Shown here one piece after another: positions 27,455 to 58,963 of a stretch of 64,000 nt of DNA. The position numbers and the translations under genes were made by a program. Each line of letters begins with the position of its first letter. The stretch's first letter is position 1. Below the pieces are notes generated by a model. The model did not search any database. It was not told where the DNA came from and saw only the letters and a program-made list of their open reading frames with translations. The stretch covers positions 186,001 through 250,000 of the forward strand of contig NW_019029002.1 of the NCBI RefSeq assembly GCF_002105155.1, given 5' to 3'. This stretch comes from Lobosporangium transversale (taxonomy: Eukaryota).

Positions 27455-28003
27455 GGCGACTGTTCGATGCTTGTTGGTTTTCCAAATCTGCTTTGATTTC
27501 ACCATAGTTTAGCGGAATTGATTAGCATCCCCTGAATGGCTGCCATCCAAGGGACTAACTTCGAATGGACAGGATTTACTGTGTTGTTCAAAACAATAAA
27601 ACTTGACTGAAAGTCTGCTAATCCTCAAACTATGAGGCAAATAATGCCTCTGAACGCTTCAATAGGATTATGGCGAGTTTTTGGGGTGCAGAAAAGACAA
27701 GATTGTATCTTTTGAGCAATGAAGGATATAGGATTTGTTCCTTGGAGGCAAACTTTTTTGAAACCACGCTTGTTGCTAGTAAAAACACAAATGGTTCCCG
27801 TTTTCCGCATACTTTCAACGCTTCCACAATCCAAGGGCTGTGATGTAGCCATTAAATGTTACATGTTTGTCGAAGTATTGACACATCCCTTGCAAAAGTT
27901 CAGATGTATGCTAAGAATATTGTTTAAGGGACGTAGAGTAGTCAATAGCATGTGGCAGTATTCAGGTGTTTATACAGTATCAGATGGAGTCCGAACAGTC
28001 GCC
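27455..28003. repeat. E1 right long direct repeat (549 bp) with 12-bp TIRs
   Basis: Near-identical to 17530-18079. Confidence 0.95.
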
Positions 28004-34021: not shown

Positions 34022-34285
34022 CACATGTGTTACCGTGCATAGATATGTAAATTAACACGTTACGATCTCGCTCAGGTTGTTGCACCTTCACGCTATTGTA
34101 GGCCGAGGGCTATTTAAGAAACAAAAAAGTACCAAAGAAGAAAAAAATACAATTGTTCAATATCCATATCTTCTATCATTATAACAAGCCATCGCCATGT
34201 CCAGAAGCGCTGCTAGACGGTTTCCCCGTGTCCCATTGGATCCACAGATTCATATCCCTCATCCAACCGCTCCAGTAGCCGCTGC

Positions 34286-34436
34286 TCCTGCTCCTGCTTC
34301 TGCTTCTGCTCCTGTTCCTGTTCCTGTTCCTGTCCCTGTTCCTGTCCCTGTTCCTGTCCCTGTTCCTGTCCCTGCTCCTGTCCCTGCTCCTGTCCCTGCT
34401 CCCGTTCCTGCTCCTGTTCCTGCTCCTGTTCCTGTC
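34286..34436. repeat. Hexamer minisatellite (CCTGYY)n within small ORF 34197-34535 (Pro-Val/Pro-Ala repeats)
   Basis: About 25 hexamer units read directly. Confidence 0.85.
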
Positions 34437-35363
34437 CACGGCTCCGGCGACGATGTAGCTGTGCTGATCGATCCACTTTATTATACTGTCAAGGTTGAGG
34501 TTATCGATTTCGCAATGGATGACCAAGGTCTATAATAAGGCTAGGCAGGCCTATAACTCGTGATACCAATGCAAGAGAAGTTGAGAAAGGACAACCCTGG
34601 ACTGCAAATGCTGTATAGTTGTGCTTCTCTATGCGATCAATGTCGCGCTGCGATATGTCTGTCGGTTCAGTATCCTCAAGCTTATACGTTTTGGTTGGAA
34701 TTCATTTTTATTTTTGAGTGTTGTGGGTGCATACTAATAAAAACTACCTTTGCTGGTATATGTATTTATACATCAGCAATAAATATTAAAGAGTTTTCGC
34801 AGATTTTTTTTTCGTCATTTTCATCACAGGCAATTGAACCTTATTTTCGCCAGTTTGAAAAATACTGCGGTACTGTGATATCACGTTGGTGAAAAGAAAA
34901 TTTCCAAAAACGTCGCTTGATGTTAAATTCATCAGGAGAATTCTATTAAACGCTCACATCACCAATCACGCATCACGCTCATTCTGGCGGTCAAAAAAGA
35001 AAGAACACCAGACAAAAAAAATATCAATAAATTGGAAAAACTAAACATTGGAAAAGTTGACCACGCCAATGCCTCCAAAAAAAAAAAAAAAAAAAAAAAA
35101 GGCTGACAATGCCTTCCATCTGCATCTTCTGCTACCCATGATTTCATAATAACCATCTCTCAATAGCTGCAAGGCTCCTGTAAGCACAATGCGCATCCGC
35201 CCTTCCTTGTTAAGCTACGACGGTATCCAATCATGTGGCTGTATTTTACGTGTCAAGAAAAGCGTGTCAAGAAAAGCGCACTGACTTTTTTTTTTTTTTT
35301 TTTTTTTTCTCATATTTACATTCCATTTCACTCATTTTCATCGACCTTTCATTTTTTCTAATC

Positions 35364-40267: not shown

Positions 40268-40948
40268 TTAAACAGTACTGATCCTCAGTGTAGGCAATCT
40301 CTCTTTAAGCATCGCTTTCAACTTTTGAATCTCCTCCAGGTGTTCTGCTCGTGCCAGGCAATGGCTGTAAAGGCCAAACTTCCGCAACGGCAGCATTAGT
40401 TGCTTACTATGTAGCAGATGGTCCACCAGAAGCTTAAACATCTCCAAATTAAAATGCATCAAGGAATCGGACGACGACATATGGAAAGGCATTACCTTTA
40501 GGATAAATAAATATCATAAGCCTTTCCAACATGCAACGTCCTTTCAGCAGTACCGTTTGCTCTCGGATTTCTGTAACACTTTCAATAACTGTGGCGAATT
40601 CACAAGAGCTTGGTGATCCATAGAGAAGCTCCAGCGACCTCAGTGTTCGAACCAGTGGTAGTTTGTCGTCAAATACTCTTTCAAGTAATGTACCAACTAT
40701 GAAGGTTCCGAGTGTAAGCTCTACAAGGTTGGGGCAGCAGACGAGAAGATTACTGAAATGGGACACTGCAGAGGGGTTACTGAAATTAATTCTGATCAAG
40801 TGAAGGCTTCGAAGGTTTGGTGCCATTGCAAAAGTCGAAATGTTGACACGGGAGAAAAGGTTCTCAAAATATCTGAGTTTCATCGATTGGATACGTGCGT
40901 TGCTAATGAGCTGAATAAGTGGATTGAACCGGCGACCGCGATTGATAA
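40268..40948 (-). pseudogene. 3' half of a Mortierellaceae-type LRR/RNI-like gene interrupted by E2
   Basis: INRGRRFNPLIQLISNARIQSM...LRSLHL...CPNLVELTL; continues the frame of 52045-53980 once E2 is removed. Confidence 0.8.
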
Positions 40949-41464
40949 GGCGGACATCCGAACCCGAGAAGTTGCCCAAAATACAAATAAATGTAAGATA
41001 TTCGAAGGTCCAAGCTACATCCGAAGGCTCTCAGAAAGTAAGTTGTTGCCATAACTAATCTTTTAAAATATATTCTGATGAATAGATGCGAGACTCGAGC
41101 AACAAATCTAATTAAAAACATTCTAACTATCACAAAGCTGAAGTCCTTTTGCCCGGTGATTTGATAGGCTGTTTAAAATTTATTTATTAAAGACATTGAC
41201 TACTTATCTGAGGATAGACTTCATGTGAGACACTGATGCGGCTGGTCAACCTATAACCAGACCAACAGACACCACTGCTGCCTTCGGATTATAATGCCAA
41301 ACACCCAATACATATACTACGGGTTCATTAAAACACACTGTTCGGCCTGCAGCCCACTAATATCAAACACTCCCAAATTGGGCATCTCTTTTTTAAAAAG
41401 TGCGATTAAATTCGAACAGGATTTATCTGGGTGGCCAAATCAGTTTCGAGCTCGGATGTCCGCC
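40949..41464. repeat. E2 left long direct repeat (516 bp) with 13-bp TIRs GGCGGACATCCGA...TCGGATGTCCGCC
   Basis: Only one substitution noticed versus 51529-52044. Confidence 0.97.
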
Positions 41465-41557
41465 TTGTGGTATCCCTTCTTTCGTTTTCGGTCCTCATGA
41501 TACCCGAATTCTCATATGATAACACATTCCTACGGAAGAAGGGATAGTTAAACTAGA

Positions 41558-42943
41558 TCAAAACTCGCGTTTGGAGTTCCAGTAGTCATCAATGGCGCGA
41601 GTCTGATTAAAGCTGCTGAGTGGCTCCCATGAATTGTCACATTTATTGTAGCCCTTCCATTGAACAAGATATTCTACTCCATCCCCTTCTCCTCGGTGCT
41701 CTATTATCTTTTTGATTTCATATGCAGTTTCTATATTGCTATCACCCATTTCATGATCGTTGTCAACATTTGAGGTAGTAGTGATACCGAGATTTAAAAA
41801 AGCATCCTGAAGCTGATACATGCTTCGAGCATCTTTGATTTCTACAACATAGCTTGGAGCAGTGGGAATTTGAGAAATGTTTGCCTCAGTGCCATCTGGA
41901 TAGTCGAAGTTCTCTTGCATCCAGAAGCTGTGATGTGGCTCTATAGTTATATTACGTAAGGCAACCATGCGTTTGATATTGAGAAGTAGGCAGCATAGCT
42001 TAAATTGCAGAGAGAAAATACTCTTTTCAGATACCCTCTTCACCACAGTATGACTGAATTTGGTGAAGATGGTCTGCATTTCTCCGAAATAACTTTCAAT
42101 CCTAGAACGAAAACTCCCAACCATTTCGTTATACTTTTTTTCCTGGTCTGTAAATGCTATCCCTCTTGTCTTGCGGACTGGACAGCAGAAGTTTGTTGAT
42201 TCCAGTTGGTCACTGTGTTCAATGATCCCATGTAGGAATTGCGAATAGCCTCCATCCAGGGTAATACAGTCAAGGCGATCGATTTTCTTCTCAATGGCCA
42301 TTTTGGAGAGCATGGTTCCATCACTAAAATCACGGCATTCGGCGGGTTGTGATACAAACACAATCATGCTATTCATATCACAGCATACTTGTGTGCGGAA
42401 CCCAGACTTTTTGAGTTTGTATGAATACAAACTGGCTTTATCTGCATTTAGGTATGCCACTCGACTATCATGGCCATCGATGTGAAGTGTAATATGTTTG
42501 AACTCCTCTGGGTTGATGGATCGTGATGTGAGCAGACGCAAGGTAATACTTGAGGACATGTTAGCAAGACAGGACGTTAACTTTGAATCCAGGGTATGTG
42601 TTTCCCTGCCAAAAAAATCTTTATACACATCATGGAATGAACTCTTGGGTAAAAATACACTCATCTCAGAGGTCGAAACCCCTTTCAATAACATGTACAG
42701 TATTAGGATGCCTTTCTCAACATTTCTGTAAGGGCCAGGATAATTCCTCGTGCCAAAAATCACTGTCAAGAAAAAGAACACTGGAACGATGCCCAGACGG
42801 TGCTGCACAAAGTCTTTGGCCTTCTCTATATTTTCCACACTCTTGATCTCAGTACGGTGGAATTTGCTCCGCTTCAAAATGGGCCAGTCCTGGTGCAGGA
42901 ATCCCCATTGAGTTGATATCAATCTGTCAAACTCTGCATCCAT
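41558..42943 (-). CDS. PIF/Harbinger-type DDE transposase with C-terminal chromodomain
   Basis: LHIDGHD, ITLDGGY, FRSRIESYFGE; YEIKKIIEHR...EYLVQWKGYNKCDNSWEP chromodomain; intact 461 aa. Confidence 0.9.
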   Translation of the reverse strand: MDAEFDRLISTQWGFLHQDWPILKRSKFHRTEIKSVENIEKAKDFVQHRLGIVPVFFFLTVIFGTRNYPGPYRNVEKGILILYMLLKGVSTSEMSVFLPKSSFHDVYKDFFGRETHTLDSKLTSCLANMSSSITLRLLTSRSINPEEFKHITLHIDGHDSRVAYLNADKASLYSYKLKKSGFRTQVCCDMNSMIVFVSQPAECRDFSDGTMLSKMAIEKKIDRLDCITLDGGYSQFLHGIIEHSDQLESTNFCCPVRKTRGIAFTDQEKKYNEMVGSFRSRIESYFGEMQTIFTKFSHTVVKRVSEKSIFSLQFKLCCLLLNIKRMVALRNITIEPHHSFWMQENFDYPDGTEANISQIPTAPSYVVEIKDARSMYQLQDAFLNLGITTTSNVDNDHEMGDSNIETAYEIKKIIEHRGEGDGVEYLVQWKGYNKCDNSWEPLSSFNQTRAIDDYWNSKREF

Positions 42944-43008
42944 TGTATAACATCACTAGCTATTATAGATATATATTCATTTAAAGATTATATTTTGGGA
43001 TTTGCTCT

Positions 43009-43090
43009 GCGGACCAGGGGCCAACTTGCAAGCTCTCTCTTAGAAAAGAATTTGTAAGTTGGCCCCGGATAAACTGGTCGGGTAAATATG
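43009..43090 (+). repeat. E2 hairpin site 1 (orientation A, 'flip' core)
   Basis: GCGGACCA-GGGGCCAACTT-GCAAGCTCTCTCTTAGAAAAGAATTTGT-AAGTTGGCCCC-GGATAAACT...GGGTAAATATG. Confidence 0.95.
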
Positions 43091-43386
43091 TTAAAAAATA
43101 AAAAGATAGCCCTCGGGAGGGAGCAGGCGAGTGGCAGACGAGAGATACGTTATACTCGACTTTTTAATAAAAGCGGAAATAGGCACATTTTTAAATCAAA
43201 ATCTTGTGTTCTTTATTTTTAAAAAGTGCATAACATATAATGCAGTCAGCGCGAGGTCATTGAGTGTTGGTGTTGTAGATGCGAGTGATATATTCGATCA
43301 TCTCCTCCTCAGTCTTCTTTTCCTACCGAAGGTCCTATCCACTAAGCGTGGGGCTGGAGGATTGCAGAATGCTGTGGGCCTTCAGG

Positions 43387-44170
43387 CTAATCGCTTTCTG
43401 GGCTGGGAGCAACAGCAGGAGTGGTGGCAGTGGCTGGACTGGCAGCGGCAGCTGGGCCGTCCCTAGTATAGGTATGGAAAACCTTTGTGATATACCCAAT
43501 CATCTCAGCTTCAGTGTTATTCTCGCTTCGAAGTACAAAGCTACGGTTATTAAGCTTGATCGGGGCATCTTTGTCGCGCCTCATATGCTGAATGACATTA
43601 TCTCCTCTTGGCGACGGATCAAATCGCAACTCCTTAACCTCAATAGCATCAAGCTCAGGGTTGTCGGTAATAAATTGCTTGACTCTACCGTCGATAAGCT
43701 TCCGTTGTTGAGCAAAGATGCGAAATCCTCCAACTGGCAATGGTTGAGGCTTCTGGAACTTTAAAACAACAAAGATCTCCTGGTCTTTAGATGGACGCGG
43801 TAAAACTCGATTCTGGTTGGCTTCTTGGAGTGCGCGCTCGCAGTTGACAAAGGCATCTTTAACGTTCTGCAGTTCGAGCTTAGTCTCAGCGTGGCTAGAT
43901 AACTCCTTATCAAGCTCCGCCTTGGTCCCTTGGCGCGCATACTCACTGTTGGCAAGAGCGAGTTTAGAGTTTTTCAACTCCAGTTCTTTCTCTTCCAAAT
44001 TGGATAGAGCTGTGTCAAGATCCGATTGAGTGGATTCCAGGTCATCCTTGGCATCCATAAGGTCTAGCTGCGTATTTCGGAGTTCAAGTGAGGGCTGCAA
44101 CCTTCTCTTGCAGTCTTTCAATACTGGACTCTTGTGCTGGTCTGGCGGGTCTGGTGGTGGTGGTGGTCAT
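43387..44170 (-). CDS. Coiled-coil + DUF3627-like protein; apparent frameshift near 44090
   Basis: ATG 44170 gives MTTTTTRPARPAQESSIERLQEKVAAL, which shifts into LELRNTQLDL...; homolog of 23058-23621. Confidence 0.65.
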
Positions 44171-44506
44171 AGTTCAAAATTGTTTTTTGGGTGAAGTAAT
44201 TAAGAAAGTTTTGAGTGGCATAATTTCAAAAGGCCACGGTTTAAATTGCAAATTTCGACAGAAATTGGTTGAGCTGGCATAATTTAATTGGTTCAGGTAA
44301 GGAAAATTGGGAAGGAAAAGAGGTGATTTGGCAGAATTCCATTGGACGAATTTTTTTTTTAAAAAAAGAAAAGGAAGGAAAAGGAAGCAAACTCACGTCA
44401 CAGGGTGAAGGATTTTATTTTAATGACTTTAAAAAGCACTATCTCGTTTTGGCGAACCTGAGCCACAGCCGGAAATTTTTTTTTCGGTGCATTTGAACAG
44501 CTTCAT

Positions 44507-44600
44507 GCGCACGGGCCAGGCTTGGCGGTGGCCAACTTACAAATTCTTTTCTAAGAGAGAGCTTGCAAGTTGGCCACCGGCTAAACTACGGGTAAATATG
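44507..44600 (+). repeat. E2 hairpin site 2 (orientation A, 'flop' core)
   Basis: GCGCACGG...CGGTGGCCAACTT-ACAAATTCTTTTCTAAGAGAGAGCTTGC-AAGTTGGCCACCG-GCTAAACTACGGGTAAATATG. Confidence 0.95.
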
Positions 44601-44847
44601 GTGACTGGATCGCACGGCCACCACTACCACCACTTTTTTGCATTTTTAAAAAAAAAAAAAAAAATTTATTACTGAGATGTCGATTGTGTTACCATTCGCC
44701 TCCAGAAATAAATGCTCTTGAAGACCAGCTCAAATTCCATATAAATACACCCAACTTGTGGAGGACCTTTTCTGCTCTATTTAATTCTATTTTCTAAATA
44801 CGACAATTAAAAAGGTGACCAACATTTGCATCATTGCGTGGTGGATT

Positions 44848-45016
44848 GGACGTATCTGGCACGATCTGGACTAATAATTAGCGAAGCCACTTCTTAGCGA
44901 CAGCCGTGGACAGCACGTGACAATCCTGTCGGGGTATGGACATATCTGGCACAATCTGGACTAACAGTTGGCAAGCCACCTTTTAGCGACAGTTGTGGAC
45001 AGCATGCGACAATCCC
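44848..45016. repeat. Imperfect 90-bp tandem duplication upstream of the E2 cargo gene
   Basis: GGAC.TATCTGGCAC.ATCTGGACTAA...AAGCCAC...TTAGCGACAG..GTGGACAGCA.G.GACAATCC starting at 44848 and 44938. Confidence 0.85.
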
Positions 45017-45353
45017 GGGTAGCAAAATTTCTTTCACTACGCCACAAAGAAACAAATGCTGATGTCTGGCAAGAAATTTGCGACCGTAAATTTATAAACA
45101 TTTAAGCTGTCACAATAAAACTCTCATGGAATTTTTTTTGGAAAAATGCATTTGAAGTATGTGGGACCTAATCAATATGTCTTTTTTTGAAATTTTAGAT
45201 ATAACAGTCACAAATGTGACATGATGCTAAAAATAGATGGTTTTTTTTTGAAAAAAGAAAAATTCTCACACTTCTTCTCACACTTCTTCTCACACTTCTA
45301 CAACTTTTCAATCACACACTTTATTCCCAAGTTTTCCTTTCGCCCTGAAAATA

Positions 45354-47208
45354 ATGATTTCAAAAGCAGAATTTCTCCGCAACACCAAGGCAACTGAGCC
45401 CTATCACATTATTGAACCATTCGTACGATTATTTGGAATTAAGGATACAGAAGAATTTTTAAGTGTTATTTCCGCCGCCTTGACGGAGCTCCTTGATGTA
45501 AATTACGACAATAATGACCAGGAACTATATCAACAATGCAAACGCTACGCTCGATGGAAACAAGTTGTTGAGGTATAGAGGCCCGAGATAGTATTAAATA
45601 ATTCATATTTGAACGCCTCTAATGTATGACCAAGCAGACCGTAACACGATCTCTTATTGTTATTTATAGTCAAAGACATTCCGCACGTCTTGTACCAAAT
45701 TTTTCGCTAAGAAGACTGCCGCCGCGACGTCTACCCCTGCTACCACTGCCAACACATTTCGTCGCTCGGACCGAATTAAGGAGATCCAGTCACCAGCAGC
45801 GCCTGTGAAATCCCTAACTGAGGAGGAAATACGGATTGATGGATTATTTTTAAAAAAAGACACGGAAACGATCGGACAAAGGATCAAACAGAGAGCTCTG
45901 GACCTAGAAGCTACTGTAACATCACCTGAGTTCAAAGATGTACACGAGCGCCGGATCTTTTCTCTTGGAGCCTCGTCAATTCTGGATCTAGTAGATATGT
46001 CAAACGAGAGTCAGCTTTTCGATGTATTTCCCAGTAAGAGTGATCAGGATGAGTTAATGACGATGTTTGCTCATCTAAGCATGAAGAGATCCATTAATGC
46101 ACCTGAACCAACTGAGTTGCTGACACATTGGGATATCTGCAGTGCGATTGCTTCTAAAGATGGGCTTGCTGAAGCACGATCCTACCTATATCGAGAGATG
46201 GGAGCCTGTCTGCCGAGCTTTGCGGAGAATCTCAAGCCTCTCCTGATAATGATTGACGCCCTCCTATGTTATCCCAAGATATTTGCACAAGAGTATGACG
46301 TAACGGAGCAGGACTTAATGAATGTTCTTTGGAGCCCGATGCTGTCTTCCTTATTTCTCCGGCAGCAGAGTGAAACTGGGATTAGGATAAAAGGAGGAGA
46401 TTCGACACAGGTAGCGTCAAACATCGAGAAAAGAGAATTCTACGATGACGGACACGCTATTGCCTTCAAAATAGATTCTCGGATCATAATAGATGTTTCC
46501 CGAAAGGGTGAAATCGACATTGCAGCCGTCGAGGTTGCTCCCAATTGCCAAGAGACCAAAATTTTTTCAGATGGGGCCAAAGTCCTCCGAGAGGCGAAGG
46601 AGATAGTAAATGGCTTGACCAAAATTTTTCCGGATGACGAAAACTTTCTCAAGAATACGATTGGTTACGGCGTTCAGATAGGGAATCTGTCTGGGTCGAT
46701 ATTTTCTCTGCATCTAGTTGCTCCGAAGCTATATGTAGCATGGCCAGAACATACATTCTGCCTTCCTGATTCACGAGGATCCTTGGATCGATTCAAGGAA
46801 GTCATTATAGCACTATCTTGGTTTCAACAGGCCGTCCAAGGCACCGCCATGAATATCAAATCAGCTCTTTCAGTGCAGAAAACAGTCGGAGCACTCTATG
46901 GCCACGGCTACAGCCATAAACCACTGGGTCAAAAGCAGTGGACTAACCCAACCTGGTTTGAACCATCAAAACCATCTAAGGCTCGGCCAATCCAGGAATT
47001 AATGAGGGTGGTGCACCCCATTCAGACTGCAATTAGTCCTCAATCAAGCGAAGACCTAAATAAGCAAACCCATGCGAATGCTACATATGACAGTAATGGA
47101 TGGGCCATTGTAGTGGCCAAAGATGGCCGACCAATGTACTTTAACAAGCATACACTGCAGTATCTTGAGGAACGTGGTGGCAAAAAAGCCAAAATGGACG
47201 TAGCTTAA
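45354..47208 (+). CDS. E2 cargo: putative PD-(D/E)XK/REase-fold protein with WW-like C-terminus (intron 45573-45669)
   Basis: Exon 1 splices in frame into ORF 45805-47208; EQDL...LWSPML, FKIDSRII...EIDIAAVEVA...KIFSDGAKVLREAK; tail NGWAIVVAKDGRPMYFNKHT. Confidence 0.6.
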
Positions 47209-48017
47209 TATATCAGGTAATCTATACTCTTGCTTTTCATACATGCATCTGACGTTATTCTACTTGAATTCAGTCTTGTTTTTTTTTTAAAAAAAAAAAA
47301 AAACAAAGGGTATTTTCTCGCTTCGCATTTGTATTTTCTTCTGATATTCAGATAGCATAGTGAGACCTGCACCCAATCTTATGTAGAAGTATTCCTGTTT
47401 TACGAAATAAATCAGCCATTCACAAAGACTTAGCATATCTGGTGTCCTCGAGACTCACGAGGACGAAGTGCGGGGAAGCAGCTGTGGTCGAAAGCCATTG
47501 TCTTTTTTTTAAAAAAAAATGTAACCCGAGACTTTTCGAATTAATGGATGCCTGGGCTCCAACTGCTGGGCCGCTCCCAAAGCTATGTAAGACTCGCTTC
47601 GGCCTCTTCCACTTTTTTTTCAGCCAAGGCTCGCGAGAGCGCATATATCCAATAAGCGGAAGAAATTATTTGACAAGGGTCCCAATCAGTCAGCTCAACT
47701 TTGATATTGGATCCCGGATGTCCAAAATGGCCCACGATAATTCCAATAAAATAACAAGATATTTTCAAAAATCCGGAAGATTACGTCTTTGAAAATGCTG
47801 TGCTGTTGGTCATATTATATTTGCATCAGTTCACAGCCCATAATCACCCCGGATCATACTAGGGTCGACACAGACCCGGGGCAGTTTGTTCAGTTGCAAA
47901 AGGATTAGACTGGGATTATAAATTAAAGTTATTTGTATTAATAATAATAAACTTGGGGATTTCTTTTTTTTTAAAATGCAAAAAAGTGGTGATAGTGGAG
48001 GCCTTGTGATCCAGTCC

Positions 48018-48115
48018 CATATTTAGCCGGCCGAAGGACCTGACAGTTTAGCCGGGGCCAACTTGCAAGCTCTCTCTTAGAAAGAAATTTACAAGTTAGC
48101 CCCTGGTCCGTGCGC
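48018..48115 (-). repeat. E2 hairpin site 3 (orientation B, 'flop' core)
   Basis: AGTTTAGCC-GGGGCCAACTT-GCAAGCTCTCTCTTAG...-AAGTTAGCCCC-TGGTCCGTGCGC. Confidence 0.95.
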
Positions 48116-48192
48116 AGGGAATGATTTCAAAAATTAAATAACTGAATATAAATTTTTTATATGTATATACAACAAGACGCACATTATAAACA

Positions 48193-51100
48193 ATGTACAA
48201 ATTTGGAGCCACATTCTACTCGCAAAAGCAACAGGGCCTTAGGCCACAGGCAGCATCTTTCAAGAGAGCTGATGAGGCTCAGAACACATTTCTTGTTGCT
48301 CATCAATTCAAGCTCAACTCGGAGGGCAAACCGCTTTGGGCATTTGGTAGCTACAAAAATCTGCAGAGCTTCCTGGAATGCACAAAGTATGTACCAGCCA
48401 CTGAATGCTTCTTCTTTGAGCAAATCCGCGATGGGACATCTTGCTGGGAATACTACGACCTGGAATGGGATCCCTCAAAGACAGAGGACACTGAGGAGAC
48501 AATCTTCTCAGATTTTTTGCAGCAAAGGAATGCCTTCTGTCTAGAATATGAGGTCTTAGCTTCTGAGTGCCGCATCTTGAGTGCATCAAATGCTGAAAAA
48601 GGGTCAATGCATATCATCTTATCAGGGTCTGGATTCAAGTTCAGAGACAACACATGCCATATGAAAAACTTTATGGACGCCTTCCATTTGATGGTTAAAG
48701 AACATCCACTTTCAAAACACATTGATTGGATTGTCTACACAAAGAATCGAAACTTCAGATGCATCAATAGTGCTAAGCGCCATGATCCAACAAGGGTTCT
48801 CCGACCTGCAATTTGGCACAATGCCTCCTGCTCTGCACCTGAGAGTGAGTTTTTTGTCACCAATGTGAGTGCTGATGCCACAGATATTGTGCATTGTCAT
48901 CTTGCAGCAAGCAAAGGTGCTAGAAATAAAGTACCTCAAGTACAGGGGTCTGAGCAGGATCAAGACCAAGAGCAAAACGAAAAGTTGCCACCTAGTGTGA
49001 TTAAAGCAATAAATACCATGCTTGCAAATATGGATTGCTTGTCACAGTTCAAGATTGGCGAATCTCATAACAATCGTATGCACCTGAAGCGTATAAGATC
49101 AGGGCACTGTCAAATATGTAATAGGATCCACGACAATGACAATGCATATGTGACAATTGCAGATCAGGGGAAAGTGTACCTCCACTGCTATAGGGTGGAT
49201 GCAAATTCCAGGCGTGATGGACTTCAAATTGGCAAACTGGATTTTCCAAGCATGATCGCACTTCGAGTACATAGGGCACAGACCAATCAAGAAGAAACAA
49301 TCACTGCGAACAAACATTGCTCACTTCGCCATTTGGAGTATAAGAAAGTTATGAAGCTGCTGCAAAACCAGAAACAGAGTCTTGTGATCCGCAGTGAACC
49401 AGACACTGCTAAGACCTCTTTTGTTGAAAGTTTTATGGATAGGCACAAGAACTTAGCATACATTTTTGTGTCTCCTCGACAATCACTAGCACGCAATCTA
49501 GAGAAGCGCCTTGAGCTAAGGAGCTATCTTAGTTTCCCTGGGCCTGTCTCTGGGAAGCGCGTGATCATTCAAGCTGAGTCCTTATATAAGCTTGACCTTG
49601 AATACTATAGCATGGATGTGGTCCTGGTCTTGGATGAGGTCTGCTCTATTTTTGAACAGATGACAAGTGTGGGCACCATGAAAGGCCGCCATGGCGCAAA
49701 CAATCAAGTCCTAGAAGAACTTATGCGCAAGTCCAAGAGGGTAATTGCCTTGGATGCTGATGTGACAGACCGAGAGGCTGAAATCATCAAGTCTGTGAGG
49801 AGCGATGTTTTTGTCATTCACAACACTTTCAAGCCACAGCAAGGGCATCAAGTTGTGTGCTTCCAGCATAAAGAAGTCTTAGAGTCTCATGTTATTGATC
49901 TTGTAAAATCTGGTCATAAGGTCTGGATATCAACCACACACTCAGCTGAAGATGCCGAGACCCTGCATAAGACACTGCAGAAAATGGGCAGAAGGGGTGT
50001 CTGTATCACAAAGAACACATCTGATGCTGATAAGATTGGCATCTCACAAAATATCAACAAAATTGTGCTGGACCTTGACTATTTCATTCACACTCCGACC
50101 ATCACAGTTGGTATAGACTGCAATGTGAAGCATTTCAACTATGTCGTGGGGTTCTTTGAAGCACAAACTGGCGTCATTGTTGAAACATGTAGACAGATGT
50201 TGCGACGACCGCGAAATGTCAGCACTCAAAAATATCTCATCTATATCAAAAATGTAACTAGCAATCTACCCACCACTTTCAGAGAGATTGTTGAGTATAT
50301 GGAAAGCCAGGAAGTGCGACTGAATGGATGTGAATTAGACATAAGTGGATTTCCTTATATATCTCAAATGGGTCAGCCTCCATCCGTTGACTTGAAAGTG
50401 CTATATGCATTAATATACATGCAGACACTCATCAAGAAGCACTTGACAAAGAATGACTTTTATCAACGCTTTATTGACCAAATGGTCCAAGTTGGCTGCA
50501 GTGTACAGGAAGCTGACTCGCATCTGTGTAAAAACGATGAATATACTGTGGAACTAAACCAAAACAAGAAAGAGCTGCTACATATCAAGTACACAGGAAT
50601 TTCGAAAGCTAGGGTCCTTGATACTGAGGAGTTTTCTCGGTTAGATGTACAAAACAGTCGAACACAGGAGGAACAATATGCTGTGACGAAGTATAAGCTA
50701 ATGGAGACCTACAGTGTACAAGATGCATCTCTTTTGACTCCTGATTGGGTTGAGAAATATGACAAACCTCGAGAGAAGAAGATCTATAAGAATCTTGCTA
50801 TGTTGAAAGAGGACCCCACACTTCAAATCTTGCGACAAGAAGATAGATTGGGTCTCAAATGTGGCAAAGCTACAGTTGGGGTTCACACACTGGGAAATTC
50901 GAGATACCTCAGGTTTAAGTATGCAAAAGACATTCTTGACAGCTGTGGATTTGATTCGCCATTTGATGACAGAGAGATGTCAGCTGAGGAGCTCAAGAGA
51001 AAAATAGATCTTCGTTGGTCAGATTTGGTCAAGGACGGAAGTATGAGAGACATCTGCACTCAGCTGGGGATTAGATGCCCCTCACACAACAATTGGGACT

Positions 51101-51249
51101 TCAAAAATAAGAAAAGCTTTTTGAATAGTGTGTTGAACGAGATTTGGGGGATCCACATAGTCAGAACTGATCACAAGTCGCATCATTATTATATCAAGTA
51201 TATGACAGAGGTTGGTAAACACAAAGATGACTTTTTCATGACACAGTAG
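48193..51249 (+). CDS. AEP primase-polymerase + Zn finger + UL9-like SF2 helicase fusion (1018 aa, intronless)
   Basis: EYYDLEW, GSMHII, HIDWIVYTKNRNFRCINSAK; CQICNRIHDNDN...LHCYR; SEPDTAKTS (degenerate Walker A), LVLDEV, HTPTITVGID, RQMLRRPR. Confidence 0.88.
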   Translation: MYKFGATFYSQKQQGLRPQAASFKRADEAQNTFLVAHQFKLNSEGKPLWAFGSYKNLQSFLECTKYVPATECFFFEQIRDGTSCWEYYDLEWDPSKTEDTEETIFSDFLQQRNAFCLEYEVLASECRILSASNAEKGSMHIILSGSGFKFRDNTCHMKNFMDAFHLMVKEHPLSKHIDWIVYTKNRNFRCINSAKRHDPTRVLRPAIWHNASCSAPESEFFVTNVSADATDIVHCHLAASKGARNKVPQVQGSEQDQDQEQNEKLPPSVIKAINTMLANMDCLSQFKIGESHNNRMHLKRIRSGHCQICNRIHDNDNAYVTIADQGKVYLHCYRVDANSRRDGLQIGKLDFPSMIALRVHRAQTNQEETITANKHCSLRHLEYKKVMKLLQNQKQSLVIRSEPDTAKTSFVESFMDRHKNLAYIFVSPRQSLARNLEKRLELRSYLSFPGPVSGKRVIIQAESLYKLDLEYYSMDVVLVLDEVCSIFEQMTSVGTMKGRHGANNQVLEELMRKSKRVIALDADVTDREAEIIKSVRSDVFVIHNTFKPQQGHQVVCFQHKEVLESHVIDLVKSGHKVWISTTHSAEDAETLHKTLQKMGRRGVCITKNTSDADKIGISQNINKIVLDLDYFIHTPTITVGIDCNVKHFNYVVGFFEAQTGVIVETCRQMLRRPRNVSTQKYLIYIKNVTSNLPTTFREIVEYMESQEVRLNGCELDISGFPYISQMGQPPSVDLKVLYALIYMQTLIKKHLTKNDFYQRFIDQMVQVGCSVQEADSHLCKNDEYTVELNQNKKELLHIKYTGISKARVLDTEEFSRLDVQNSRTQEEQYAVTKYKLMETYSVQDASLLTPDWVEKYDKPREKKIYKNLAMLKEDPTLQILRQEDRLGLKCGKATVGVHTLGNSRYLRFKYAKDILDSCGFDSPFDDREMSAEELKRKIDLRWSDLVKDGSMRDICTQLGIRCPSHNNWDFKNKKSFLNSVLNEIWGIHIVRTDHKSHHYYIKYMTEVGKHKDDFFMTQ

Positions 51250-51423
51250 GCTTGTATATAATGATTTTTAAAAAAGTGGCGTCCTTCAGTCAAGATTTAG
51301 AAGATGGATTCAAGTATAGTTCATGTAATATTACCATCTGGGTAACCAATCAGAGCAGGCTAATAGGCTAATAGGCTAATATATTATTTGAGTTACTACT
51401 GAGGACTATATAACCGGGAGTAA

Positions 51424-51494
51424 CATTTAGCCGGGGCCAACTTACAAATTCTTTTCTAAGAGAGAGCTTGCAAGTTGGCCCCTGGTGCGTGCGC
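51424..51494 (-). repeat. E2 hairpin site 4 (orientation B, 'flip' core)
   Basis: CATTTAGCC-GGGGCCAACTT-ACAAATTCTTTTCTAAGAGAGAGCTTGC-AAGTTGGCCCC-TGGTGCGTGCGC, 34 bp before the right direct repeat. Confidence 0.95.
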
Positions 51495-51528
51495 AGGGCT
51501 TGACTCACCCTCCAAAAGAAATTGGGAA

Positions 51529-52044
51529 GGCGGACATCCGAACCCGAGAAGTTGCCCAAAATACAAATAAATGTAAGATATTCGAAGGTCCAAGCTACAT
51601 CCGAAGGCTCTCAGAAAGTAAGTTGTTGCCATAACTAATCTTTTAAAATATATTCTGATGAATAGATGCGAGACTCGAGCAACAAATCTAATTAAAAACA
51701 TTCTAACTATCACAAAGCTGAAGTCCTTTTGCCCGGTGATTTGATAGGCTGTTTAAAATTTATTTATTAAAGACATTGACTACTTATCTGAGGATAGACT
51801 TCATGTGAGACACTGATGCGGCTGGTCAACCTATAACCAGACCAACAGACACCACTGCTGCCTTCGGATTATAATGCCAAACACCCAATACATATACTAC
51901 GGGTTCATTAAAACACACTGTTCGGCCTGCAGCTCACTAATATCAAACACTCCCAAATTGGGCATCTCTTTTTTAAAAAGTGCGATTAAATTCGAACAGG
52001 ATTTATCTGGGTGGCCAAATCAGTTTCGAGCTCGGATGTCCGCC
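51529..52044. repeat. E2 right long direct repeat (516 bp) with 13-bp TIRs
   Basis: Near-identical to 40949-41464; followed by TAA. Confidence 0.97.
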
Positions 52045-53505
52045 TAATGTCAGGTGTTGGTCGTCGAAGATACTCTCCGTCCACGCAGAGGCGGACAAGG
52101 TTTGATGTAGTAGCAGCCGTTGCAAATTCTCAAAAGTCCTCCATTGTTGCGTCCCACCCGAATTTGAAAGTCAACTCCTGGATACCGCGCGCTTGGACCA
52201 TGACTTCATAAAACTCCTTTGCTTGTACTGACGATCTGAGACTAGTGTCGATGCTACCATGCTGCTCATCATATTCGCCGCCGTTAGCTGCAACGATCTC
52301 CTTGAACCGCTATACTACTGATTCCCTGTAGCTCTCTCGATAGTGGTCGAAACATACCCATTTGACATGGCCCTCAAGAGTGACAATGCGATATAGGTTA
52401 CCGAGGGTACGGCTCTGGTTGTGGGCCAGCAAAAACGATTGGAGCCGCCGTAGGTCTGCCCCTTCAAGCACTTCTGATTTCCCGATCATTGCCTGGCCCG
52501 CAATGTTATTAATACCACCATCGGCTTCCTGATGATTGTTTTGGAAGTAATTGATTGATTCATCCACAAGTAATACGATCCCGTGCCCTGACACCTTCAC
52601 TACACCTCTCGCTACATCAATCCAGTCTGAGATGTCGAGTTGAGCCAATGGAGGCAAGACAAAGCCAGCAGCAAGGACTCCGTATTTAAGTATCTGTAGC
52701 ATTGTCAATACATAGGATCCGTACTTCTCAAAGAACTCTGCGGGTCGGTCGATATTATACCCTTCATGCTTTGCCAGATGTATATGGTGCGGGATATTGC
52801 TCTTGGATGGCTTCGTGTGACCGCCACACTTACGCAGGAAGAACAACCGAAACTGGTATGCAAATGGTTTCCCTAGCTTATCAAGGGGTCCTGTAAGCTT
52901 TGGGAGGACGATGAACAGTCTGGGGATTGGGTATTCGTGCAATTCGTAGGTCTGAGTGATGGGAGCTTGCACTCGGCTTTGAATGATGGCTAGCCTGTCC
53001 AGAACCTGTTTCTGCATCTGCAACATCTCACTCTGTTTATTCTGCAAAAGCTGCAGTTCCTCCCTATTCTTCTTTATCTCTTGTTGCATCTGCTGTCGAA
53101 GGGCTTTGATGAGCTCGGTGTCTTCTCGCTGCTGACTAAAATGTACTGCCATGGTTGCTTTGAGCCATAACATCGGTTTGATTCATTTGGATCACCTCCG
53201 TTGATTTAGAGTGAGAGCTGTCGATGCAGTTATTCTGAAAGGATGGCGGTTGGACATTAGTGTCCATAGCACTGGGAAGAAGGGTCAGTTTGGGTCCCTC
53301 CAAAAGCTTGTCTGAGATGGGAAGGTCCCCAATGTGCTTTGACATTGCACTCGTTAGTGCTTCGGCGGAGGATGCTTTTAAGAACGCATGAAAAGGTGAA
53401 AGGGGTACCTCAGAGGTGGCGTTGATACGAGCTGGCGCGCTGACCACGACTTGCAAGGTAGTCCCTGGTCGATATTGGACCCTTAAAGGAACAAGACTAA
53501 AAGGA

Positions 53506-56692: not shown

Positions 56693-57330
56693 ATGTTTCA
56701 GGCCGATAATTACATTTCATTTCATGACCTCAGTCCCGAGGCACGCATCCTTTGGGTGTCACCGTCCATGATGGATGTGCTCGGGTATTCGTCAGAGGAT
56801 GTGGTTGGACGGAATGCATATGATATCATTTATCCGGATGACCACACCCAGGGGCGAGTGGTTCATAAGGAGAATGTGATGAATGACTTTGTGGCCAGTC
56901 AGGTCGTCCTTCGATACAAGGCCAAGGACGGTCGAGCTGTGCCCTGTGTAGCAGTCTTCAGTCTCTGCTATGACTTTATCCTCAATTGTTCCACCCTTGT
57001 CGATCCAAGTGCTGCTGCCTGTGAGTTTTCTTTTTCTTTTCTTTCCCTTTCCCTTTCCCTTTTCTACCTTATCCTCACTCAATCCTCAATCAATCCTCAA
57101 CCAACCCGTAACTGGTTTTTTATTATTATTATTATTATTATTGTTGATTCAGGTCCCTTTGAGGACCGTTTTTATCCAAAGGATATCACTGGTTAAATTT
57201 CTTTTTTTGTTCTAGTCTCCTATTTTCTTTTTTTTTTTTTTTTCTTCTTGACCAATTGGGAGAGGATTGCTTGTCCAAAGGTTGAAGCATTTAACAACAT
57301 AGTATCAGAAAACTCAAACTGACAATGTCC

Positions 57331-57364
<34 letters not shown>

Positions 57365-58963
57365 TTGCAGATAGACACCTTCGAGCGCATTCTTCTGCAA
57401 TGACTCGCCTCGTAGGATCTAGAAAAGCGGTAAGTGAACTAACTTGTTAGCTAAAAAAACATTTATGCACTTTCTTTTTTAAAAAAAGAGTGTAACTCTT
57501 CCCTTCCATTCCTCCATCTATCTGTCTACCAATCTATCCATCCATCCATCCATCGGAGTGTAATAGTGCAATGCATTGCATTGTCCATATTCTGTATACG
57601 ACTGTATACATATCTATATACATATATGTATACATTAATTCAAAATTCAAAATTCAAAATTCACTATTCAGTATTCAGTATTCAATATTCAATATTCAAT
57701 TTGTACAAAAGATTAAATGCTGCATTTGCATAAGGTCTAGAACAGCTCGTATTCCATTGCTATCAATATATGACAACATGAACTTGTGGACTAGACAATT
57801 TTTTTTATTTTTTATTTTTTTATTTTTTTATAAATATATTTTTTTTTCTTTATTTTGTCGATCAATGGATGAATAAAAAAAAAAAAAAAAAAAAAAGACT
57901 AATGACAGCAATTTGCCTTTGATTTTTACTTGATCCGTAGGAATTCGAGCGGATCAAACGTCATCACGAGGCATTTGCAGCCAATTCATGGAATCATCAC
58001 GGATTGGAACCAGAGTTGAGGGTTTGTATGATTATGAACCGGTTCACGCGGAATCTGGTGATCATGTACGCCTCCTCAGCATGTGAATCCATCTTCCATA
58101 TCGATGCAGACTCGATCGTGGGCAAGCCCGTTCTGTTGTTTGTCCGTGCCGATGACCTGGCCCCGTTCGTGGAGCAGATGGACTCTGTCAAGGCCTCGTC
58201 CGCGATCTCCCATATGCGCTTCTGGTTTCAATCTCCTCATTGGCCACGGGAAATTCCATGCGAGGCCATCATGTTTGGGGCTGCAGACGGGATTGTGGCG
58301 ATTATGCGGAGATGTAAACCTTTTTTGAGAAAGCAGTTTATCACGGACAGTTCACATTGTGGGCCATATCATCATCATAATAATAATAACAATAAAAGTT
58401 TGGGATCATCATGGTCTTCCCTTGCCAGTGCTGCAAGGTCACGCCTCTCCACGCCCTCGACCTCCTTCAACTCGACCTCATCTCTAAAATATCCATCCCA
58501 GACAGCAAGTCCAGGGTACTATGCTGCCTCCAGAGCCAGGCTCAATAAGATCCGCATTGTGGATGAGAACGATGGACGGTTAAGGCCCCTGGCCATTCCG
58601 AAGGACGATCCCAATCTTTTGTCAGACACATCTCTCCCTGCAGCGTTCAAGGAGCATCGGGCACAATATGTGGAGGAGGAGGAGGAGGATGATGATTCGA
58701 TCGAGGTAGAGAATGAGGAGGAAGTAGAGAGATTGAGCATAGGTCTAGACGATGGAGAGACCCATATGGATTTCAATCTTGTGCAGGGTACAAAGGAGAT
58801 GGACATTGGAGGTGGCAATAGATTTCATTACCAGCAGCAGCAACAGCAACAACAACAATACTATGACTCTCACCATGATCACGGGAGTGTATACAATTCT
58901 CAGTACTCTAGTCATTCCAATATATTGGATCGTACGCGTAACAATCGTACTTCACAATCATAA
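56693..58963 (+). CDS. Tandem PAS-domain protein, copy 1 (3 exons)
   Basis: YISFHDLSPEARILWVSPSMMDVLGY..EDVVGRNAYDIIYPDD (PAS); second PAS IMYAS...IVGKPVLLFVRADD. Confidence 0.85.

What the first reader, a model, noticed from the sequence alone, without database searches (positions are those of the whole stretch)
41558..42943. Harbinger-type transposase fused to a chromodomain, with no Myb/SANT partner
Seen: both transposases end in a chromodomain that keeps aromatic-cage-like residues (E2: Y...W.GY; E1: Y...W.GF), and I see no Myb/SANT ORF in either element. Established: chromodomains on chromovirus integrases steer insertion toward heterochromatin. Inference: chromatin-guided targeting, which fits insertion into degraded or accessory sequence between housekeeping blocks.
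Basis: partly seen in the sequence, partly recalled or inferred. Interest (0 to 1): 0.7.

Follow-up and report, generated by a model that had tools for sequence, protein, structure and literature searches.

The report
Self-copying fungal transposon with chromodomain transposase
This gene is the chromodomain-tipped transposase of an 11-kb fungal mobile element that is bounded by long direct repeats and also carries a giant-virus-type primase-helicase gene and four palindromic repeats, so it likely copies its own DNA as well as inserting it and would be a new kind of self-replicating transposon.

Summary
ORF 41558-42943 is an intact IS5/Harbinger-like DDE transposase with a C-terminal chromodomain and full aromatic cage, and no Myb/SANT frame was found. 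The finding misses the larger unit. The gene lies in an 11,096-bp element (E2, 40949-52044) bounded by two 516-bp direct repeats (515/516 identical, each with its own TIRs) and a TAA target duplication, inserted as one piece into a host pseudogene. E2 and a sister element (E1, 17530-28003; transposase 50% identical) both encode a PrimPol-type primase fused to a UL9-like helicase, a DUF3627-like protein, cargo, and four ~50-bp palindromes found nowhere else in the window. In other Mortierellaceae the transposase adjoins the same primase-helicase (5 fused gene models), the DUF3627-like gene (5 cases), or an unrelated Prim-Pol/D5 primase-helicase (1). Farther relatives pair with a possible Rep_trans initiator. 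Best reading (0.55): a capsid-less, self-replicating, composite-like transposon. Replication and chromatin targeting are inferred, not shown; the cage is lost in one subfamily and the chromodomain in another clade. Ten literature searches found no description; Repbase could not be searched.

The parts
40949..52044 (.). Element E2, 11,096 bp, inserted as one unit; TAA on both sides (40946-40948, 52045-52047)
40949..41464 (+). E2 left long terminal direct repeat (516 bp) with 13-bp TIRs starting GGC
41558..42943 (-). DDE transposase (IS5/PHIS-like) fused to chromodomain, 461 aa, intact
43017..43066 (.). E2 palindrome 1 (GC-rich arms, AT-rich spacer, conserved flanks)
43387..44058 (-). Gene Y: coiled coil plus DUF3627-like domain; conserved partner; covered by a contig of run X5 (RNA status a guess)
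44526..44579 (.). E2 palindrome 2 (spacer inverted relative to flanks compared with palindrome 1)
45354..47208 (+). Cargo gene X with one 97-bp GT..AG intron near 45571-45669; no Pfam hit; restriction-endonuclease-like by recalled motif only, untested
48054..48103 (.). E2 palindrome 3
48193..51249 (+). PrimPol-type AEP primase + UL52-like Zn finger + UL9-like SF2 helicase, 1018 aa, open frame; Walker A variant with Lys kept
51433..51482 (.). E2 palindrome 4
51529..52044 (+). E2 right long terminal direct repeat, 515/516 identical to the left
52310..53173 (-). 5' part of the host gene interrupted by E2; 2 in-frame stops between it and the junction
40449..40883 (-). 3' part (weak LRR-like hit, E 0.082) of the same host gene; frame continuous across the computed empty site
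17530..28003 (.). Sister element E1, 10,474 bp; flanking triplets TAC and AAT do not match (no intact TSD)
17530..18079 (+). E1 left direct repeat (550 bp, 12-bp TIRs starting GGC)
18212..19600 (+). E1 transposase-chromodomain, 462 aa
19649..19701 (.). E1 palindrome a
19771..22984 (-). E1 primase-helicase, 45% identical to E2's; frameshifted near its 5' end
23061..23624 (-). E1 gene Y homolog
23980..24030 (.). E1 palindrome b
24424..27244 (+). Broken Crinkler-family cargo gene (N-terminal domain Pfam E 1.9e-21; rest in several frames), with palindrome c (24958-25011) inside it
27363..27413 (.). E1 palindrome d
27455..28003 (+). E1 right direct repeat (549 bp; 537 identities, 12 mismatches, 1 gap against the left)

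Best explanation
The gene is the chromodomain-bearing DDE transposase of an 11-kb element that is bounded by TIR-tipped direct repeats, was inserted as one unit with a TAA duplication and co-encodes a primase-helicase, and the element likely works as a capsid-less self-replicating transposon. Shown: anatomy, single-unit insertion of E2, the same gene set in E1, and the gene linkage in other genomes. Inferred: (1) the transposase cuts at the outer TIRs and integrates at TWA; (2) recombination between the direct repeats, or excision, frees a circle; (3) the UL9-like helicase binds and melts the palindromes as origins, PrimPol primes, and host polymerases or PrimPol extend, giving extra copies or repeat-sharing concatemers from which new units with fresh identical repeats are cut; (4) recombination at the palindromes shuffles and inverts cassettes and picks up cargo; (5) the chromodomain tethers the integration complex to methyl-lysine nucleosomes (probably H3K9me), an accessory step that some lineages dropped.
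For: Direct repeats with TIRs, TSD and restored host frame. Same four gene types in two elements whose transposases fall in different well-supported subfamilies. Primase-helicase: UL9 E 9e-13 and PrimPol E 7e-4; a near full-length relative is a Marseillevirus origin-binding protein. 8 palindromes in the window, all inside E1/E2; 40 shuffles give mean 0.275, max 2; E2 spacers occur in both orientations, 2 and 2. Linkage elsewhere: primase-helicase joined to the transposase in 5 gene models from 4 species and adjacent in L001 (E 4.5e-26); Y next to the transposase in 3 of 53 tag pairs against 0.02 expected, plus 2 fused models and L003; Y next to the primase-helicase in two related assemblies. 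An unrelated Prim-Pol + D5/SF3 helicase is joined to an E2-type transposase-chromodomain in P0342: the replicase function recurs while the protein is swapped. A possible Rep_trans initiator lies beside the transposase in 12 of 29 close metagenome loci and in P0120.
Against: No free circle, concatemer or amplification was seen: contig depth inside E2 is close to the flanks (X2 102-122 vs 85-105; X4 10-13 vs 8.5-10.7; a rough measure). Only 1 of 29 named primase-helicase records itself showed a transposase neighbour and 3 a Y neighbour; contigs are mostly short and only 120 of 175 transposase hits were listed. Direct-repeat ends are shown only for the two elements in this window. E1 lacks a matching TSD and its primase-helicase is frameshifted; E2's Walker A is non-canonical. 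The Rep_trans call is a lead only (Foldseek E about 0.01; atlas 0.80; not among the top VIA rows). L025/L028 hold a distant relative alone between 117-bp inverted repeats.
Confidence: 0.55

Rival explanations
1. An ordinary cut-and-paste composite-like PHIS element (KolobokP-style) that carries, as passenger or nested guest, a separate palindrome-bounded primase-helicase/Y element; the transposase does not depend on it.
For: The block between the outer palindromes lies downstream of the transposase in E1 and upstream in E2, with palindromes as nested inverted pairs; most named primase-helicase records show no listed transposase neighbour; depth shows no amplification.
Against: Y is linked to all three Mortierellaceae subfamilies and the primase-helicase to all three (window; subfamilies); no TSD was seen by eye at the palindrome ends; a second, unrelated primase-helicase fills the same slot.
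Confidence: 0.27
2. Integrated form of a helper-dependent virus or transpoviron-like satellite that replicates only during giant-virus infection, with the transposase as its integrase.
For: Primase-helicase and DUF3627-like gene both have Nucleocytoviricota relatives; size of 10-11 kb.
Against: No capsid or packaging gene, and little room for one; the spliceosomal-type intron and the chromodomain point to a nuclear life.
Confidence: 0.1
3. One reading: a simple Harbinger whose chromodomain replaces the Myb/SANT partner, with the neighbouring genes unrelated.
For: Intact DDE, cage, TAA TSD, GG-start TIRs, no Myb/SANT.
Against: The TSD flanks the whole 11-kb unit, not the transposase gene; each repeat alone has no TSD; partners are conserved across species; relatives without a chromodomain also show no Myb hit among the partner ORFs scanned.
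Confidence: 0.08

Closest known systems
PIF/Harbinger and the PHIS superfamily (PMC4482050, parts 1-2 of 4 read)
   Same: DDE_Tnp_4 transposase, TWA target duplication, short TIRs starting with G
   Different: No Myb/SANT ORF; chromodomain fusion; about 11 kb against about 4 kb; direct-repeat ends; replication genes
KolobokP (PMC9587614, part 1 of 6 and passages read)
   Same: Internal region between two ~450-660-bp direct repeats that have their own short TIRs; transposase inside; circular intermediate proposed there
   Different: PHIS-type instead of Kolobok transposase; TAA not TTAA; primase-helicase, DUF3627-like gene and palindromes instead of a His-Me finger nuclease; fungal
Polintons/Mavericks and casposons (self-synthesizing transposons; passage in PMC6839031, abstract start of PMC4779613 in a search listing)
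   Same: Integrase plus own replication enzyme in one mobile unit
   Different: AEP primase + SF2 helicase rather than family B polymerase; IS5-like transposase rather than retroviral integrase or Cas1; direct repeats; no capsid gene found
Chromovirus integrases (passage in PMC6839031 citing Gao et al. 2008)
   Same: C-terminal chromodomain on a DDE enzyme
   Different: DNA transposase, no reverse transcriptase; targeting untested here
Herpesvirus UL9/oriS and AEP-helicase plasmid replicons such as pRN1 and RSF1010 (origin anatomy recalled, no call)
   Same: UL9-like helicase beside palindromes with AT-rich spacers; primase-helicase fusion
   Different: Chromosome-integrated, transposase-bearing; binding to the palindromes untested

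Membership tests
PIF/Harbinger (sensu PMC4482050) | DDE transposase of the DDE_Tnp_4/IS5 type | tested here: met
PIF/Harbinger (sensu PMC4482050) | TWA target site duplication | tested here: met
   TAA at E2; E1 has no matching pair
PIF/Harbinger (sensu PMC4482050) | Short TIRs starting with A or G | tested here: met
   12-13-bp TIRs starting GGC on each direct repeat
PIF/Harbinger (sensu PMC4482050) | Second ORF with Myb/SANT domain (most autonomous elements) | tested here: not met
PIF/Harbinger (sensu PMC4482050) | Phylogenetic placement inside the Harbinger clade | not testable with these tools
   No reference PHIS set on hand; the tree holds only relatives found here
ISL2EU | THAP domain, YqaJ exonuclease ORF and AT TSD | tested here: not met
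   No THAP or YqaJ Pfam hit; TSD is TAA
Pangu/Harbinger2 | ANT TSD, transposase without extra domains | tested here: not met
   TAA TSD and chromodomain
KolobokP | Long terminal direct repeats with own TIRs | tested here: met
KolobokP | Kolobok transposase and His-Me finger nuclease | tested here: not met
   DDE_Tnp_4/IS5 hits and no His-Me hit
KolobokP | Solo repeats and multimers in the genome | not testable with these tools
   No whole genome held
Polinton/Maverick | Protein-primed PolB, retroviral integrase, capsid genes, long TIRs | tested here: not met
   None among ORFs; ends are direct repeats
Self-synthesizing transposons (functional class) | Integrase and replication enzyme in one bounded unit | tested here: met
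Self-synthesizing transposons (functional class) | Extrachromosomal replication by the encoded enzyme | not testable with these tools
   Only contigs were available; depth near single copy
Canonical methyl-lysine-reading chromodomain | Chromo fold with three-residue aromatic cage | tested here: met
Canonical methyl-lysine-reading chromodomain | Binding to H3K9me/H3K27me and biased insertion | not testable with these tools
   Needs peptide binding and chromatin maps
Rep_trans initiators (partner ORF of relatives) | RepD/TBP-like fold with catalytic motifs | tested here: inconclusive
   Foldseek 4cwe and 4cij E about 0.01 with TBP; atlas 0.80; no Pfam hit; VIA top rows generic

The most novel reading that the evidence does not exclude
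A previously undescribed class of capsid-less, self-replicating eukaryotic DNA transposons: one IS5-like transposase lineage of Mucoromycota and other eukaryotes, ancestrally chromodomain-guided, that swaps among three unrelated replicases (PrimPol-UL9, Prim-Pol-D5, Rep_trans-like), uses palindromes as origins and cassette-exchange sites, regenerates LTR-like direct repeats from concatemers, and ferries Crinkler-type genes.
Probability: 0.4. Interest if true: 0.88.

Novelty: new variant of a known kind. Interest (0 to 1): 0.76.

Why it matters
It would add a third route to self-synthesizing transposons after Polintons and casposons, built from a Harbinger-like transposase and giant-virus-type replication genes, and give a second, independent origin of composite-like direct-repeat ends in eukaryotes with a testable mechanism for keeping them identical. 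It offers a young, apparently intact element (repeats 515/516 identical) to test whether a chromodomain can steer a DNA transposase as it does chromovirus integrases, and a vehicle that could explain the spread of Crinkler-type genes and virus-like replication genes in early-diverging fungi.

Tried and rejected
No whole genome is held, so copy number, solo repeats and insertion-site chromatin could not be counted. Viral contig scans with both alignments found no relative; the prokaryote scan gave 2 short contigs in bacterial bins with no primase-helicase or Rep-like neighbour, likely misbinned eukaryotic DNA. No RNA holder was listed; run X5 left the transposase and primase-helicase uncovered and run X6 left cargo, repeats and host flanks uncovered: no evidence either way. 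An empty site in another strain remains untested. The idea that the direct repeats are 500-bp target duplications was rejected: they carry their own TIRs and the host frame is restored only when both are removed. The two elements' repeats are not detectably related (best local score 30). Palindromes as promoters: rejected as the general role, since their tail faces gene 3' ends in 6 of 8 cases. RNAalifold gave no useful covariation (covariation term 0; only two families). A sequence search of the PDB with the Rep-like alignment gave nothing. The wide structural search was not run; the narrower one was. Three look-ups of earlier findings were blank. Ten literature searches found no description of this element; passages of PMC9963178, PMC5751038 and PMC12730594 mention Harbinger elements in fungi but none with these partners. 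One wanted paper on Crinkler origins was not held; supplements were not read and Repbase could not be searched, so a catalogued entry cannot be excluded.

Full report
1. Observation. The ORF at 41558-42943 (-) encodes 461 aa with DDE_Tnp_4 (E 4.8e-8) and Chromo (E 5.8e-11); the paralog at 18212-19600 has both and is 50% identical. NCBIfam gives IS5-family hits below cut-off for 23 of 35 aligned members. The model (pLDDT 86) aligns to Tn5 transposase (Z 11.6, rmsd 5.6, 258 aligned) and to HP1/CDY/CBX chromodomains. In 121 sequences (E1, E2 and 119 of the 120 listed hits; 175 were found) the DDE triad is nearly invariant; 85 have the chromodomain region and 72 of these keep the three-residue cage. 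No Myb/SANT hit was found in the main ORFs or 133 further frames. Named homologs come from Mortierellaceae and, more distantly, Mucorales; the host is inferred to be a Mortierellaceae fungus.

2. The real unit. Self-comparison shows two pairs of long direct repeats. E2 spans 40949-52044; its repeats are 516 bp, 515 identical, each with its own short TIRs. TAA flanks the whole element but not either repeat alone, and removing the element and one TAA by computation restores one reading frame between the host ORF pieces at 52310-53173 and 40449-40883. That frame holds 2 further stops; given the young repeats, the target was probably already a pseudogene (inference). E1 spans 17530-28003, repeats 550/549 bp with 12 mismatches and 1 gap, and no matching TSD. 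Long poly-A/T runs, typical of the host DNA, number 51 in the window and only 2 lie in the elements.

3. Gene content. Both elements encode a ~1,000-aa protein (45% identical) with AEP motifs, a UL52-like Zn finger and a UL9-like SF2 helicase: Pfam Herpes_ori_bp; PDB hits UL9 (E 9e-13), PrimPol (7e-4) and, weakly, poxvirus D5 primase. 1,037 clusters match at E 1e-30 or better, and one near full-length hit is a Marseillevirus origin-binding protein. E1's copy is frameshifted near the 5' end. Both encode gene Y, a coiled coil plus a DUF3627-like domain (atlas TM 0.74 to a KilA-N/DUF3627 cluster; features score 0.87, a lead). Cargo differs: a broken Crinkler-family gene in E1, gene X in E2. A contig of run X5 (RNA status a guess) covers Y, another covers X with a GT..AG joint. 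Eight ~50-bp GC-armed palindromes occur in the window, four per element and none outside (shuffles mean 0.275). They share flanks across the two families, stand as two forward and two reverse copies in each element, and in E2 the spacer is inverted in 2 of 4 copies. Gene order differs between E1 and E2, but transposase and primase-helicase keep the same cyclic orientation.

4. Other genomes. Locus tags and equal contig lengths place Y within two genes of a transposase in three species (3 of 53 pairs, 0.02 expected) and next to a primase-helicase in two related assemblies. Among the proteins held, 8 match two profiles: 5 primase-helicase + transposase, 2 Y + transposase, 1 transposase + Rep-like; these are probably neighbouring genes merged by gene prediction. 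P0342 joins Prim-Pol, D5_N and DUF5906 (SF3 helicase) to an E2-type transposase-chromodomain. Crinkler parts adjoin the transposase (P0030) or Y (P0142). Of 29 close metagenome loci (9 weak hits set aside; L025 and L028 are the same locus), L001 has the primase-helicase C-terminus beside a chromodomain transposase, L003 has Y plus a worn palindrome, and 12 have a ~550-aa partner (8 of them built the profile) that may be a Rep_trans initiator (not confirmed). The tree (44 rows) gives a Mortierellaceae clade (100/99) with three subfamilies, each with a Y-linked member, and a separate clade of 13 chromodomain-less loci. Against: only 1 of 29 named primase-helicase records showed a transposase neighbour itself (short contigs, partial lists), and direct-repeat ends were seen only here; three Rep-like loci end in 51-100-bp inverted repeats instead.

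5. Mechanism. Shown: single-unit insertion with TAA, and stable coupling of the transposase to replication-type genes. Inferred from the families involved: the transposase integrates; a circle formed by repeat recombination or excision is copied by the primase-helicase from the palindromes (UL9/oriS and plasmid primase-helicase origins are recalled analogies); concatemers supply units with identical repeats; palindrome recombination shuffles cassettes; the chromodomain adds tethering to methylated nucleosomes. Contig depth shows no amplification in two DNA runs, so any replication is rare or silent there. Confidence 0.55; passenger or nested element 0.27; virus satellite 0.10; simple Harbinger 0.08.

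6. Comparison. It meets the transposase, TSD and TIR criteria of PIF/Harbinger but not the Myb/SANT one (PMC4482050, parts 1-2 read); absence of Myb is itself known in Pangu and PHISTA, so that part of the finding is not surprising. It shares KolobokP's ends (PMC9587614) but not its enzymes, and works like Polintons and casposons without their genes. Chromodomain targeting is established for LTR integrases (passage in PMC6839031). Ten searches found no paper on this combination; Repbase and supplements were not seen.

7. Verdict. A real and larger feature than reported: a new composite-like, probably self-replicating PHIS-related transposon group. Novelty: new variant of a known kind, possibly a new class. 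Interest 0.76.

Noticed in passing
run X6 laid on window 42457-43324 and 48047-50359: A second organism (coded B) holds transposase and primase-helicase stretches about 96-97% identical to E2, with different sequence upstream of palindrome 3; possible recent transfer or a close sister species.
   Followed up: partly
L003:290-345: An E1-type palindrome sits before a transposase 85% identical to E2's, suggesting module exchange between families.
   Followed up: partly
window 17530-17536 and 19652-19660: E1's palindrome arms share a 7-base start with E1's TIR; E2's do not.
   Followed up: no
P0336, P0311, P0326, P0103, P0047: In the cage-less subfamily the primase-helicase runs head to tail into the transposase in 5 gene models; a true fusion or read-through is not excluded.
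   Followed up: partly
L006:1-6097, L014:1-9673, L004, L007: Chromodomain-less relatives beside a 750-940-aa ORF with Cys/His motifs of no Pfam family; L006 and L014 have 130-bp terminal direct overlaps, as in circles or tandem arrays.
   Followed up: partly
P0075, P0076: Cunninghamella models join an aspartyl protease to the transposase-chromodomain; perhaps an adjacent retroelement fragment.
   Followed up: no
window 56693-58963 and 60544-62748: Tandem duplicated PAS-domain genes (68-74% DNA identity).
   Followed up: no
window 61478-61738: A ~100-bp inverted repeat pair (86%), MITE-like, inside the second PAS gene.
   Followed up: no
window 44847-45015: An 80-bp direct repeat (85%) upstream of gene X, with related copies elsewhere in the runs.
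   Followed up: no
window 34197-34535: ORF with a long Val/Ala-Pro tandem repeat.
   Followed up: no
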